A stretch of DNA of 64,000 nucleotides, taken from the NCBI GenBank assembly GCA_902573085.1, contig CACGHY010000002.1:4925-68924 (forward strand), given 5' to 3'. This document shows positions 16,970-19,742 of this stretch, piece by piece; positions within the stretch are counted from its first letter, which is position 1, and each line of letters begins with the position of its first letter. Made by a program: the position numbers and the translations under genes. Origin of the DNA: an uncultured Candidatus Poseidoniales archaeon. Lineage in GTDB: Archaea > Thermoplasmatota > Poseidoniia > Poseidoniales > Thalassarchaeaceae. The notes beneath the pieces were generated by a model. It saw nothing but the letters and a program-made list of their open reading frames with translations. It ran no database searches and had not been told where the DNA came from.

Positions 16970-17211
16970 CAAAGCAGGGCTATTTCAAAGAGGAGTGGAG
17001 GCCAAGGAAATCGAAGCGTAGCGCGTGGCGCGAGAGAAGGCAGGGGTATCTCCAGAGGAGACTCAATGCGGGTCTGGCTAGAAAGCGAAGGTGTTCCTGT
17101 TGCAACGGCATGGGTTTCACCATCGAGGAGTTGCCATACAAAGAGCAGAGGGCAATCTTAGACGCCAGAACAGAGGATAGAAGACGAAGACGGAAGGAGG
17201 AGGAGGAGTGA
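16966..17211 (+). CDS. Basic Arg/Lys-rich protein (81 aa) ending in EEEE
   Basis: Track ORF with an ATGA overlap at its start. Contains CSCCNGMG. The 3' end AGGAGGAGGAGGAGTGA holds the next gene's SD and GTG start. Confidence 0.55.
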   Translation: MTKQGYFKEEWRPRKSKRSAWRERRQGYLQRRLNAGLARKRRCSCCNGMGFTIEELPYKEQRAILDARTEDRRRRRKEEEE

Positions 17212-17480
17212 CTGATCTGCCATCATGGGCCGACGCCGCGAAGGCGATAGAGGGAGTCGAGGTTCTGGATAAGCCACGTTGGAAGGACGGCGAACCATGC
17301 CCGGACTGTGGCCGCGTGGATGAGGGATGCAAGCACCCAGAGGCAGAGGGAGAATTACCGGGGAGGATTGTGTGCTACGACTGTTGGACCGTCCTCCATG
17401 GTGGCCTAGAGGAGGGAGAGGAGTGGGTGTGCAAGACCTGCTGTCACTTCGATTACCCTCTGGTCAGGCGGCTACCCTAG
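17208..17480 (+). CDS. Cys-rich zinc-ribbon protein (90 aa)
   Basis: GTG start in a GTGA overlap. CPDCGRV...C and CYDC...CKTCC pairs. Confidence 0.55.
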   Translation: MTDLPSWADAAKAIEGVEVLDKPRWKDGEPCPDCGRVDEGCKHPEAEGELPGRIVCYDCWTVLHGGLEEGEEWVCKTCCHFDYPLVRRLP

Positions 17481-17604
17481 TAAGGATTCATAACGATACA
17501 CCAGTCTGTGGGGTCGATGGTTCAGTCGAGTCGCCCCCTGCTAATCCCCCTGTTCGTGGTTGCGATCGACTGGACTATCCTATACAATCAAGGGAGTATG
17601 TATC

Positions 17605-17712
17605 ATGTATAGGGCGTGTCAATGCAACAAGCCCGGTTGTTCCAACTGGAGTCCATCTCCCGCCGCATTGTGCTTCTATTGCAGGACGTGGGGAGAGACT
17701 GAGGATGCTTGA
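17605..17712 (+). CDS. 35-aa Cys-rich micro-ORF upstream of the chaperonin
   Basis: MYRACQCNKPGCSNWSPSPAALCFYCRTWGETEDA. AAGGGAG lies 7-13 nt upstream of the ATG. Not in the track because it is under 60 aa. Confidence 0.3.
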   Translation: MYRACQCNKPGCSNWSPSPAALCFYCRTWGETEDA

Positions 17713-17716
17713 GGTA

Positions 17717-17839
17717 ATGGCGACCAGTCCAGAGCAAGCAGAGGCAAATTGGGAGTTAATCAAGGGCATGGCCGCGTGGGGAGGAGTCGCTTTGCTGTGG
17801 CTCTATCTCTATGTCAAAGTCAAGGAAATCCTGAGATAA
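17717..17839 (+). CDS. 40-aa predicted membrane micro-protein
   Basis: MATSPEQAEANWELIKGMAAWGGVALLWLYLYVKVKEILR. GAGGT lies just upstream of the ATG. It is the 3' part of the otherwise implausible track ORF 17327..17839. Confidence 0.3.
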   Translation: MATSPEQAEANWELIKGMAAWGGVALLWLYLYVKVKEILR

Positions 17840-17880
17840 GGTCGGCGGGATTAAATGTCAATCCTGTCAGCACCGACGTT

Positions 17881-19464
17881 ATGAACAACGTGCCACAAGG
17901 CAACCAACCGATATTCATAATGAAGGAGGGGACGGAGCGAATCAGGGGAAAGCCCGCCCAGAGCAACAACATCGCGGCGGCTAAGGCCGTCGCTGAAACC
18001 GTGAGATCCACGCTCGGTCCAGAAGGAGCCGACAAGATGTTAGTGGACCCATCAGGAGATGTGGTCATCACCAACGACGGAGCCACGATATTGAACAGGC
18101 TAGACGTTGAACACCCTGCCGCGAAACTCATCATAGAGGTATCCGAAACCCAAGAGCAGGAGGCTCACGATGGAACGACATCAGCCGCCGTTCTGGTGGG
18201 AGCCATACTAGAACGTGCGGAGGATTTGCTAGACGACAGCATACACCAGACAATCATATGCAGGGGCTTCAAGGAGGCTCATGACTTAGCCAAGGACGAG
18301 TTAGCCACATTGGGATGGGATGCCACAGAGGAGGACTTGACTAGCGTCGCCATGACTAGCCTGACCGGGAAGAGTGCAGAAGGAGCGGCAGAGGTAATCT
18401 CAGCAATGTGCGTCGAGGCCGTCCAGACAATAGGTGATGAGGGTACGTTAGATGACATCATGGTAGCCTCATTCTCTGGTGGGACGTATGATGAGTCCGC
18501 ATTGATTCATGGTGTCCTCATAGAGAAGGAGCGAGCGCACAGCGAGATGCCCGCGAGCCTGAACGACGCTCATGTCCTACTGGTCACAGAGGAGATTGGC
18601 ATCAAGGAGTCGAAGTTCGACACGACGCTCAACATCAACAACCCAGATCAGGTCAAGGACTTCTTGGCTCAAGAGGAGGAGATGCTCAAGGGGATGTGCG
18701 CGGAGATAATATCAACAGGTGCTAATGCGGTGTTCTGCCAGAAGGAGGTGGATGACCTCGCAATGCACTATCTAGCGAAGGCCGGGATCTTCTGCCTAAA
18801 GCGCGTGAAGAAGAGCAGGATGGAGGCACTCAAGAAGGCAACGGGCGCGAGGTTCGTCAATGGCTTGGAGGATATAGACCCGGAGGACATGGGTCTGGCT
18901 TCTAGTATTGAGGAGGTCAAGTTCGGAGACTATCATTGCACGGTCCTGAAATCAGATAGGACGACAAGCGTTACTGCCGTGCTTCGTGGTAGTACCGGCC
19001 ACTCCCTAGATGAGATAGAGAGAGCATGGGACGACGCCATGGGTGTGGTTTTCCTGAGTGCTAGGGCCAAGAAATTGGTTGCAGGAGGTGGAGGAGTGTA
19101 TGCCCACCTAGCCCGACATCTGAGGTTGAAGGCCGCTACCATGGGAGACAGAAAGGGAATGGCAATCTCCGCTTTCAGCGACGCTCTGGAATCAATACCG
19201 AAGACTCTGGCGGAGAACGCCGGAATCGATCCGGTCGATGCAGTCCTCGCGCTACGCAAGGCAGAGAGCGCGGACTACGGGATAAACACACAAGGGGATG
19301 TGGTGAACATGAGGGATGCGAAGGTCATAGAGCCACACAAGGTAGTGTGGACAGCACTTGGCTCCGCTACCGAAGCCGCCATCATGATTCTAAGAATAGA
19401 CGACGTGATTAGTATGAAGGCAGGTGACGGGGGTATGCCACCAATGCCGGGGATGATGGGTTGA
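17881..19464 (+). CDS. ths: Group II chaperonin (thermosome/CCT family), 527 aa
   Basis: Starting at MNNVPQGNQPIFIMKEGTER: LGPEGADKMLV, VITNDGATIL, VEHPAAKLIIE and HDGTTSAAVL are signature motifs. The Gly/Met/Pro tail GDGGMPPMPGMMG is typical of thermosome C-termini. I chose ATG 17881 rather than the alternative start at 17749 used by the track. Confidence 0.9.
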   Translation: MNNVPQGNQPIFIMKEGTERIRGKPAQSNNIAAAKAVAETVRSTLGPEGADKMLVDPSGDVVITNDGATILNRLDVEHPAAKLIIEVSETQEQEAHDGTTSAAVLVGAILERAEDLLDDSIHQTIICRGFKEAHDLAKDELATLGWDATEEDLTSVAMTSLTGKSAEGAAEVISAMCVEAVQTIGDEGTLDDIMVASFSGGTYDESALIHGVLIEKERAHSEMPASLNDAHVLLVTEEIGIKESKFDTTLNINNPDQVKDFLAQEEEMLKGMCAEIISTGANAVFCQKEVDDLAMHYLAKAGIFCLKRVKKSRMEALKKATGARFVNGLEDIDPEDMGLASSIEEVKFGDYHCTVLKSDRTTSVTAVLRGSTGHSLDEIERAWDDAMGVVFLSARAKKLVAGGGGVYAHLARHLRLKAATMGDRKGMAISAFSDALESIPKTLAENAGIDPVDAVLALRKAESADYGINTQGDVVNMRDAKVIEPHKVVWTALGSATEAAIMILRIDDVISMKAGDGGMPPMPGMMG

Positions 19465-19742
19465 GTCCCTTCAAGAGAATCATGACTGGAAAGACGAAGC
19501 GGCTACGGCTCAAGATTGTGAAGCACCTTGAGAAGAAGGGTCCGCAAACGACACAGCAGATTTTCGACCACATCAACAAATCGTCCTATGGTGGAACCAC
19601 ATTACAGCAAACCACCAATGTCCTATCGAAAGACCCCCGGTTCAGAGCGATCGGTTTCGTCCAGACCAAATCACCCATCGAGAACCAGAGGTACAACATA
19701 CAGGTCTGGGACTTGACGTTGGATTACAAGGACTGGTCATGA
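19461..19742 (+). CDS. Small putative winged-helix DNA-binding protein (93 aa)
   Basis: LKIVKHLEKKGPQTTQQIFDHINKSSYGGTTLQQTTNVLSK...IQVWDL is a wHTH-like pattern by eye only. The start overlaps the chaperonin stop. Confidence 0.4.
   Translation: MSPFKRIMTGKTKRLRLKIVKHLEKKGPQTTQQIFDHINKSSYGGTTLQQTTNVLSKDPRFRAIGFVQTKSPIENQRYNIQVWDLTLDYKDWS

What the first reader, a model, noticed from the sequence alone, without database searches (positions are those of the whole stretch)
17881..19464. Virus-encoded group II chaperonin (thermosome)
The 527-aa product has the hallmark motifs GPEGADKM, ITNDGATIL, VEHPAAKLIIE and DGTTSA, plus a Gly/Met/Pro C-terminal tail. Group II chaperonins are archaeal or eukaryotic. 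From memory, they have been reported in marine viral genomes predicted to infect group II Euryarchaeota, so this gene is a host and lineage indicator. In phages with GroEL homologs the chaperonin helps fold structural proteins. Here candidate clients include the two giant tail proteins or the leader-tagged array proteins. Two micro-ORFs (17605..17712, Cys-rich; 17717..17839, membrane) and a 9/10-bp interrupted inverted repeat (17521-17530 / 17565-17574) precede it.
Basis: partly seen in the sequence, partly recalled or inferred. Interest (0 to 1): 0.6.

Follow-up and report, generated by a model that had tools for sequence, protein, structure and literature searches.

The report
Thermosome gene of a marine archaeal virus
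A roughly 106-kb tailed virus of marine group II archaea (Poseidoniales) carries its own intact, selection-maintained archaeal-type protein-folding machine (a thermosome subunit); this is real, but the kind of gene was already published in 2017, so it is confirmation with some added detail, not a discovery.

Summary
Window 17881..19464 (+) encodes a complete 527-aa group II chaperonin: NCBIfam thermosome_alpha 581 bits, and E 1e-130 / TM about 0.9 to solved thermosomes. All 22 ATP-site residues checked are intact, including the catalytic Asp, and so is the built-in lid.

The 106-kb contig is viral from end to end. It is collinear with independent IMG/VR genomes, so it is not chimeric.

The gene is under strong purifying selection (dN/dS 0.02-0.06). 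It belongs to a monophyletic virus-only clade (100/100) that is sister to all cellular Poseidoniales thermosomes (100/100). This points to one old capture, not a recent host fragment.

The viral clade carries fixed changes at positions that are otherwise universal in archaea: Lys of GPKG, Gly of QKGIDD, and a residue in the helix I take to be apical helix 11.

Virus-encoded thermosomes of MGII viruses are already published (Philosof 2017, Nishimura 2017, Marine 2017), so novelty is low. Clients and ring composition remain inferred.

Side observations:
- A 4-nt-overlapping, host-derived DUF3860 winged-helix gene lies downstream.
- Three conserved micro-ORFs lie upstream.
- No family-B DNA polymerase was found in this virus lineage.

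The parts
17881..19464 (+). Thermosome (group II chaperonin) subunit, 527 aa
   Evidence: Cpn60_TCP1 2e-148, thermosome_alpha 581 bits, 1a6d_B E 2.6e-130. AlphaFold model pLDDT 83.6, TM 0.89-0.91 to 1q2v/3ruq. dN/dS 0.019 and 0.063.
19461..19742 (+). DUF3860 winged-helix-like protein, 93 aa. Its TTG start overlaps the thermosome stop by 4 nt.
   Evidence: Pfam PF12976 2.1e-11. PDB 2od5_A 7.6e-9. Same position directly after the thermosome in 9 of 12 loci examined and in 11 of 27 IMG/VR DUF3860 loci.
17849..17863 (+). Candidate archaeal promoter: A/T box ATTAAAT centred about 28 nt before the ATG, followed by GTCAATC
   Evidence: a single match in the window, 0.01 expected. A similar A/T box about 24-35 nt before the ATG, with GTCAATC next to it, is seen in L092, L094 and L096. 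GTCAATC alone is not enriched in the window. Function is inferred only.
17717..17839 (+). Micro-ORF, 40 aa, one hydrophobic helix
   Evidence: similar peptides at the same place in L092 (9870-9956), L094 (1897-2019) and L095 (9266-9397).
17605..17712 (+). Micro-ORF, 35 aa, Cys-rich (C-x-C...C...LC[FY]Y[CH]xTWG), probably zinc-binding, with GGGAG 9 nt upstream
   Evidence: the motif is conserved in L092, L096 and L095.
17508..17612 (+). Third micro-ORF, 34 aa (..IPLF..IDWTILYNQG). It contains both arms of the inverted repeat (17516-17529 / 17566-17579).
   Evidence: the peptide is conserved in L092 and L096 with different codons. The inverted repeat is not conserved in L096.
17208..17480 (+). 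90-aa zinc-ribbon-like protein, conserved upstream neighbour
   Evidence: homologous ORFs (..PSWV.SAL...CPxCG...CYDCW...C..CGHFD) in L092, L094 and L096. No Pfam match.

Best explanation
The gene encodes a working subunit of a virus-owned thermosome. A tailed virus lineage that infects Poseidoniales (marine group II archaea) captured a canonical host thermosome gene once, long ago. It has kept the gene as a syntenic core gene at the head of its early/replication gene block. The protein retains everything a group II chaperonin needs to bind and hydrolyse ATP and to close its own lid, so it needs no GroES-like partner. During infection it most likely assembles into the usual double ring and folds virus proteins of chamber-compatible size, for example the 43-kDa HK97-type capsid protein, the portal, the terminase or replication proteins. 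Its substrate-facing apical domain has diverged most from the host's. SHOWN: identity, completeness, intact ATP site and lid, purifying selection, viral context, a single viral clade sister to the host clade, and clade-specific substitutions. INFERRED: ring assembly, ATPase activity, timing of expression, and which proteins are clients.
For: Family and fold.
ATP site: D66, D97, K164 and D385 align with Mm-cpn D60, D91, K161 (nucleotide-sensing loop) and D386 (catalytic). All 22 ATP-site positions checked are identical in 11 viral and 6 of 8 cellular sequences; two distant cellular sequences differ at one or two of them.
Lid: residues 238-272 align without gaps to solved thermosomes. The model has the long lid helix 255-279.
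Selection: dN/dS 0.019 (dS 0.15) and 0.063 (dS 1.8).
Viral context: capsid protein, protease, portal, terminase, tape measure and tail tube are on the same 106-kb contig. The contig is collinear with IMG/VR genomes G031 and G033 across its length, and its two ends are adjacent in G031.
Core gene: a chaperonin is present in every capsid-related contig that is at least 81% complete.
Phylogeny: viral clade 100/100, cellular Poseidoniales clade 100/98, the two as sisters 100/100; root-to-tip 0.96 against 0.27. Four more thermosomes from contigs with 82-93% identical capsid proteins fall inside the viral clade.
Divergence by domain, viral against MGII: equatorial 0.58, intermediate 0.48, apical 0.42.
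Against: The capsid protein is 82-93% identical among viruses whose thermosomes are only 44-54% identical. This does not fit a chaperonin finely tuned to the capsid protein.
The host MAG already has a canonical thermosome plus two divergent paralogues, so the need for a viral copy is not explained.
The crown viral clade has lost the Lys/Arg of GPKG, which is present in 60 of 60 cellular sequences. The effect on the ATPase cycle is unknown.
Confidence: 0.8

Rival explanations
1. The viral subunit does not build its own complex. It inserts into host thermosome rings as an extra paralogue and re-targets the host machine towards viral proteins. This is compatible with the main explanation; it differs only in ring composition.
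For: The host MAG encodes three cellular group II paralogues. The equatorial domain, which makes the ring contacts, is the best-conserved domain between virus and host at 0.58-0.59. The N-terminal strand, stem loop and C-terminal strand are nearly identical to the host's. The 52-54% identity to the host subunit is, from general knowledge, not far below that of paralogue pairs that do mix in archaeal thermosomes.
Against: Those contact segments are conserved in all thermosomes, so they do not discriminate. Many archaeal thermosomes are homo-oligomers. The equatorial substitutions G423D and Q426G, at positions invariant or nearly so in cells, could just as well isolate the viral subunit from host rings.
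Confidence: 0.25
2. The gene is a recent host-derived passenger, a decaying copy, or host DNA on a chimeric contig.
For: The contig sits in a Poseidoniales MAG bin. The thermosome and DUF3860 are the only two contig proteins with homologues elsewhere in that MAG.
Against: It is only 52-54% identical to the MAG's own thermosome. The cellular clade is monophyletic (100/98) and excludes it. dN/dS is 0.02-0.06. The same gene order appears in Tara, JGI and IMG/VR assemblies. The whole contig is collinear with viral genomes.
Confidence: 0.02
3. The protein has left the folding job. For example, it acts as an ATP-independent holdase, an assembly scaffold, or a decoy that titrates a host factor.
For: There are fixed changes at universally conserved positions (K48, G289, Q295, R307, G423, Q426). 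It also evolves about 3.5 times faster than the cellular clade.
Against: All ATP-binding and catalytic residues and the lid are strictly kept across the whole viral clade. That would not be expected without an ATP-driven cycle.
Confidence: 0.05

Closest known systems
Thermosome genes of magroviruses group A and D (Philosof et al. 2017, PMC5434244; group A = Apasviridae, PMC11706807) and of 'clade 1' MGII viruses (Nishimura et al. 2017, PMC5332604)
   Same: It is a tailed virus of about 100 kb linked to Poseidoniales. The thermosome groups with MGII homologues and lies in or beside the replication gene block. The genome also has a roughly 6-kb LamG-like giant protein, a PD-(D/E)XK nuclease and an HMGL-like carboxylase domain, as described for group A.
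   Different: No family-B DNA polymerase was found on this contig or on five related IMG/VR contigs, one of them rated 100% complete. The published groups are defined partly by polB. I could not compare directly with the published genomes, because they are not in the collections searched.
Virioplankton thermosomes (Marine et al. 2017, PMC5649160)
   Same: These are full-length viral thermosomes with conserved ATP/Mg sites, deep-branching relative to Euryarchaeota, on contigs of tailed archaeal viruses.
   Different: That study could not settle placement between Halobacteria and MGII. Here the sister relation to Poseidoniales has 100/100 support.
Cellular Poseidoniales thermosome (for example the host MAG's own copy on contig C52)
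   Same: It has the same architecture and the same 22 ATP-site residues. It shares the derived residues F/Y/H96 and S101.
   Different: Identity is 52-54%. The crown viral clade lacks the basic residue of GPKG, and the whole clade lacks the Gly of QKGIDD. It also has Q295 to hydrophobic, R307K, D215E, G423D and Q426G.
Methanococcus maripaludis chaperonin Mm-cpn and Thermoplasma / Thermococcus thermosomes (PDB 3kfb, 1a6d, 1q2v)
   Same: Identity is 42-46% over the full length with TM 0.86-0.92. The catalytic Asp, the nucleotide-sensing Lys and the lid align.
   Different: Those are cellular housekeeping chaperonins, and they have Gly before DGTT, where this protein and the Poseidoniales proteins have an aromatic residue or His.
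GroEL-like chaperonins of bacteriophages (for example Pseudomonas phage EL and OBP, cited in PMC5434244) and the GroEL of magrovirus groups B, C and E
   Same: In each case a virus carries its own chaperonin without a separate co-chaperonin.
   Different: Those are group I (GroEL) proteins. The best phage-database matches to this protein are only 24-30% identical.

Membership tests
Group II chaperonin (thermosome/CCT) | Full-length match to the family models above curated cut-offs | tested here: met
   Pfam PF00118 495.6 bits (cut-off 34.3). NCBIfam thermosome_alpha 581 (cut-off 450) and thermosome_beta 567 (cut-off 400). GroEL models reach only 54-99 bits. The older TIGR02339 model scores 564.5, below its cut-off of 671.
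Group II chaperonin (thermosome/CCT) | Three-domain fold (equatorial, intermediate, apical) | tested here: met
   AlphaFold model pLDDT 83.6. Foldseek TM 0.86-0.92 and rmsd 2.1-3.0 A to thermosome chains 1q2v, 3ruq, 1a6d and 4xcd.
Group II chaperonin (thermosome/CCT) | Built-in lid (helical protrusion of the apical domain) in place of GroES | tested here: met
   Residues about 238-272 align without gaps to the lid of 1a6d_B, 1q3r_A and 3kfb_A. The model has helix 255-279 with a flexible tip at 244-249.
Group II chaperonin (thermosome/CCT) | ATP-binding and hydrolysis residues (GPxG-DK, TNDG, DGTT, nucleotide-sensing Lys, catalytic Asp, GGG) | tested here: met
   D66, D97, K164 and D385 align with Mm-cpn D60, D91, K161 and D386. 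All 22 positions checked match the cellular consensus. Exception next to the site: residue 48 is Glu, where all 60 cellular sequences have Lys/Arg.
Group II chaperonin (thermosome/CCT) | Assembly into two stacked 8- or 9-membered rings, and ATP-dependent folding | not testable with these tools
   This needs purified protein (size-exclusion chromatography, EM, ATPase and refolding assays).
Magrovirus group A / Apasviridae | Genome of about 100 kb with thermosome, roughly 6-kb LamG-like protein, PD-(D/E)XK nuclease and carboxylase auxiliary gene | tested here: met
The contig is 106,262 bp. A relative of 108,315 bp is rated 100% complete. PD-(D/E)XK nuclease. HMGL-like domain at C2:1272-2138. Description taken from PMC11706807.
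Magrovirus group A / Apasviridae | Family-B DNA polymerase in the replication module (the groups are defined by polB and capsid-protein trees) | tested here: not met
   PF00136 was not found on C2 or on five related viral contigs. tblastn with two cellular PolB proteins and a motif scan were also negative. I therefore do not file the virus as a member, only as similar.
Magrovirus group A / Apasviridae | Capsid protein groups with reference group A capsid proteins | not tested
   Reference genomes are not in the searchable collections (one search found none).

The most novel reading that the evidence does not exclude
The viral thermosomes form a distinct, neo-functionalised class of group II chaperonin. 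After a single capture they lost the universal basic residue beside the phosphate loop and remodelled the apical substrate groove (G289, Q295, R307 around the helix I take to be helix 11), step by step. The result would be a chaperonin with altered ATP kinetics and a virus-specific client range. It is co-expressed by translational coupling with a host-derived DUF3860 winged-helix protein that might regulate it or work with it.
Probability: 0.3. Interest if true: 0.5.

Novelty: already known. Interest (0 to 1): 0.25.

Why it matters
Viral chaperonins show which host functions limit virus production. Poseidoniales are among the most abundant archaea in the surface ocean and remain uncultured, so a virus-borne thermosome is one of the few solid virus-host links.

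This report adds three things:
- a well-supported single-origin phylogeny;
- proof of selection and intact catalytic residues;
- a list of clade-specific substitutions that could guide biochemical work on how a group II chaperonin can be re-specialised.

The basic fact has been in the literature since 2017.

Tried and rejected
1. tblastn against GenBank phages found only GroEL-like matches of 24-30% identity, so no published close relative could be fetched.
3. The 'H' before DGTT looked like a damaged P-loop. It is the normal Poseidoniales state (F/Y/H), so I rejected it as a defect.
4. I asked whether the thermosome was acquired several times, because capsid proteins are 82-93% identical while thermosomes are 44-54% identical. 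I rejected this: all copies fall in one clade, and the divergence is typical of the whole replication block (27-71%).
5. I considered DUF3860 as a dedicated co-factor. This is weakened for three reasons. The family is a core cellular gene of Poseidoniales (31 of 31 genomes) and is not next to cellular thermosomes. Fifteen IMG/VR contigs carry it without a chaperonin within 3 kb. The genomes are collinear anyway.
6. GTCAATC as a general viral promoter motif is not enriched in the window (19 found, 13.7 expected).
7. The inverted repeat as a regulatory element is not conserved beyond close relatives.
8. Pfam and PHROGs searches of the replication-block ORFs for a polymerase found nothing.

Full report
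OBSERVATION. The ORF at 17881..19464 (+) is open and translates to 527 residues. A TTG at 17749 would give 571 aa. Homologues begin at the same MNNV/MM...QPIF position, and the extension would run over a conserved micro-ORF, so ATG 17881 is the likely start.

IDENTITY. The protein scores as follows:
- Pfam Cpn60_TCP1: 2e-148.
- NCBIfam thermosome_alpha: 581 bits (cut-off 450); thermosome_beta: 567 bits (cut-off 400).
- CCT models: 240-365 bits; GroEL models: under 100 bits.
- Best solved relatives: the Thermoplasma, Thermococcus and Methanococcus thermosomes, E about 1e-130 over the whole length.
- AlphaFold model: pLDDT 83.6. It superposes on closed-state thermosome chains with TM 0.86-0.92.

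Residue-by-residue alignment to Mm-cpn gives D66=D60, D97=D91, K164=K161 (nucleotide-sensing loop) and D385=D386 (catalytic). The lid segment aligns without gaps. All 22 ATP-site positions that I tabulated are identical in 11 viral and 6 of 8 cellular sequences; two distant cellular sequences differ at one or two of them.

CONTEXT: VIRUS, NOT HOST.
- Where the window sits. The window is bases 4925-68924 of a 106,262-bp contig (C2). That contig belongs to a 1.16-Mb, 62%-complete MAG.
- Viral genes on C2. It carries an HK97-type capsid protein (phrog_24667, 6.7e-49), prohead protease, portal, large terminase, tape measure and tail tube.
- Host homologues. Only two of its proteins have homologues elsewhere in the MAG: the thermosome and the small gene after it.
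- Comparison with viral genomes. C2 is collinear over almost its whole length with two IMG/VR viral genomes, of 93 kb and 108 kb; the 108-kb genome is rated 100% complete. In the 93-kb genome the genes at C2's two ends are neighbours. This fits a complete, circularly permuted genome without host flanks.
- Independent assemblies. The gene order (ArdC polyvalent protein or helicase, small ORFs, thermosome, DUF3860) recurs in Tara, ENA and JGI assemblies. Chimerism is therefore excluded.

HOST. The MAG has its own canonical thermosome on C52. It scores 786 bits and is 83% identical to proteins labelled Thalassarchaeaceae and 77% identical to proteins labelled Poseidoniaceae. The MAG also has two very divergent paralogues in ordinary cellular neighbourhoods. 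The viral protein is 52-54% identical to the canonical copy.

PHYLOGENY. I built a careful IQ-TREE analysis (LG+C20+F+G4 by PMSF, 65 sequences) using named archaeal thermosomes fetched from GTDB genomes.
- The viral clade has 100/100 support on a stem of 0.95 substitutions per site.
- The cellular Poseidoniales clade has 100/98 support and includes the MAG's copy.
- The two are sisters at 100/100, and an uncultured Thermoplasmata sequence is the next branch out.
- Mean root-to-tip length is 0.96 in the viral clade and 0.27 in the cellular clade.
- Four more thermosomes, taken from IMG/VR contigs whose capsid proteins are 82-93% identical to C2's, all fall inside the viral clade; two of them are basal.

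This is one old capture followed by fast but constrained evolution. It is not a recent host fragment. Two residues support the Poseidoniales origin independently. An aromatic residue or His stands before DGTT, where 42 of 43 other archaea have Gly. Ser follows DGTT, where others mostly have Thr. Both states are shared only by the viral and Poseidoniales clades.

SELECTION. Nei-Gojobori estimates give dN/dS 0.019 against a 99%-identical IMG/VR copy (dS 0.15). They give 0.063 against the 83%-identical Tara copy (dS 1.8, near saturation).

WHAT IS SPECIAL ABOUT THE VIRAL CLADE. Twenty-one positions are at least 90% conserved across 60 cellular thermosomes but keep that residue in at most 20% of the viral clade.
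- The Lys/Arg of GPKG is basic in 60 of 60 cellular sequences and is never basic in the 29-member viral clade of the first tree, which has E, L, M or S; the later-added basal L195 still has Lys.
- The Gly of QKGIDD is Gly in 60 of 60 cellular sequences and is E, D or A in all viral ones.
- The other main changes are Q295 to a hydrophobic residue, R307K, D215E, K197S/T, G423D, Q426G and loss of H462.
- The changes accumulated stepwise. The basal viral sequence L195 keeps most cellular states but already has G289E.
- Positions 289-307 lie at and around the helix (292-300 in the model) that follows the lid helix. By order I take this to be helix 11. In CCT, helix 11 and the proximal loop form the substrate-recognition groove (PMC9704529). 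I did not check this assignment on coordinates.
- Identity between viral and cellular proteins is lowest in the apical domain (0.42), against 0.58 in the equatorial domain.

MECHANISM. The protein is most likely an ATP-driven, self-lidded chaperonin subunit made early in infection, with a re-tuned substrate surface. Ring assembly, activity and clients are inferred, not shown.

The capsid protein is a size-compatible candidate client. However, it is nearly invariant among viruses whose thermosomes differ by half their residues. The thermosome's divergence (54% and 44% identity) matches that of the neighbouring replication genes (27-71%), not that of the structural core (capsid 93/87%, terminase 92/83%, portal 85/80%). 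This fits Philosof's suggestion of replication-protein clients at least as well as it fits capsid folding.

The giant 2205-2717-aa proteins cannot be enclosed whole. That judgement rests on general knowledge of chamber size.

Mixed rings with host subunits cannot be excluded.

COMPARISON WITH THE LITERATURE. Virus-encoded thermosomes in tailed viruses of MGII were described by Philosof et al. (groups A and D), Nishimura et al. (all 18 'clade 1' genomes) and Marine et al. in 2017. They were noted again for Apasviridae in 2025. C2 matches the published description of group A in four respects: size, thermosome, LamG-like giant protein and carboxylase gene. I found no family-B DNA polymerase on C2 or on five relatives. 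I therefore call it group-A-like and not a member.

SIDE OBSERVATIONS.
- DUF3860. A 93-aa DUF3860 winged-helix-like gene starts 4 nt before the thermosome stop. It has the same position in 9 of 12 loci examined and in 11 IMG/VR loci. Its family is a core gene of Poseidoniales with two paralogues. However, it is not beside cellular thermosomes, and it occurs without a chaperonin nearby in 15 other viral contigs. A specific functional link is therefore unproven.
- Upstream elements. Three conserved micro-ORFs and a zinc-ribbon gene precede the thermosome. A TATA-like box about 28 nt before the ATG suggests a leaderless transcript.

VERDICT. The kind of gene is already known. The added value is the phylogeny, the evidence of constraint, the signature substitutions and the gene neighbourhood.

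Noticed in passing
window 19461-19742 (+); also L092:11581-11862, L094:3892-4188, L096:9091-9372, L194, L196, L197: A DUF3860 winged-helix-like gene overlaps the thermosome stop by 4 nt (TTGA/GTGA). This arrangement is conserved across thermosomes that are only 44-58% identical. The purine-rich codons of the Gly/Met tail (GGGGATGATGGG) lie just before its start and look like a Shine-Dalgarno site. Thermosome and DUF3860 are the only two contig proteins with homologues in the host MAG.
   Followed up: partly
31 Poseidoniales genomes (G000-G030); L100, L102: DUF3860 (PF12976) is present in 31 of 31 genomes of the order, usually as two paralogues, and scores above cut-off in none of 14 control genomes. 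The solved structure 2od5 closely resembles the strong cellular paralogue. Fifteen IMG/VR contigs carry a DUF3860 gene with no chaperonin within 3 kb.
   Followed up: partly
window 17508-17839: Three consecutive micro-ORFs are conserved as peptides in relatives whose synonymous sites are saturated, so they are likely real small proteins. They are 34 aa (..IDWTILYNQG), 35 aa (Cys-rich, zinc-knuckle-like) and 40 aa (single hydrophobic helix).
   Followed up: partly
whole contig C2 (window = C2:4925-68924) and IMG/VR records G031, G032, G033, G035, G037: No family-B DNA polymerase is detectable (PF00136, tblastn with cellular PolB, motif scan), even in a relative rated 100% complete. Published magrovirus groups are defined partly by polB. 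Either this lineage uses the host polymerase or it has an unrecognisable one.
   Followed up: partly
C2:1272-2138 (-), outside the window to the left: A 288-aa HMGL-like protein (PF00682, 1.4e-26), the carboxyltransferase domain of pyruvate carboxylase-type enzymes. It matches the auxiliary gene reported for magrovirus group A.
   Followed up: no
host MAG contigs C3:32282-33802 and C6:16208-17737: The MAG has two very divergent cellular group II chaperonin paralogues (428 and 388 bits; 35% and 30% identical to the viral one), in addition to the canonical thermosome on C52. They lie in ordinary cellular neighbourhoods (sugar epimerase, purH) and have very long tree branches.
   Followed up: no
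IMG/VR G035 versus G031 and G033: Module mosaicism. G035 has a thermosome 99% identical to the window's but a capsid protein only 92% identical. G031 has a 93% identical capsid protein but a 54% identical thermosome. This suggests exchange between the early/replication arm and the structural arm.
   Followed up: partly
window 17849-17863; L092, L094, L096 upstream regions: An A/T box is followed by GTCAATC about 18-30 nt before the thermosome ATG. It is conserved in three to four diverged lineages, but the motif is not enriched elsewhere in the window. It may be a gene-specific promoter or operator.
   Followed up: partly
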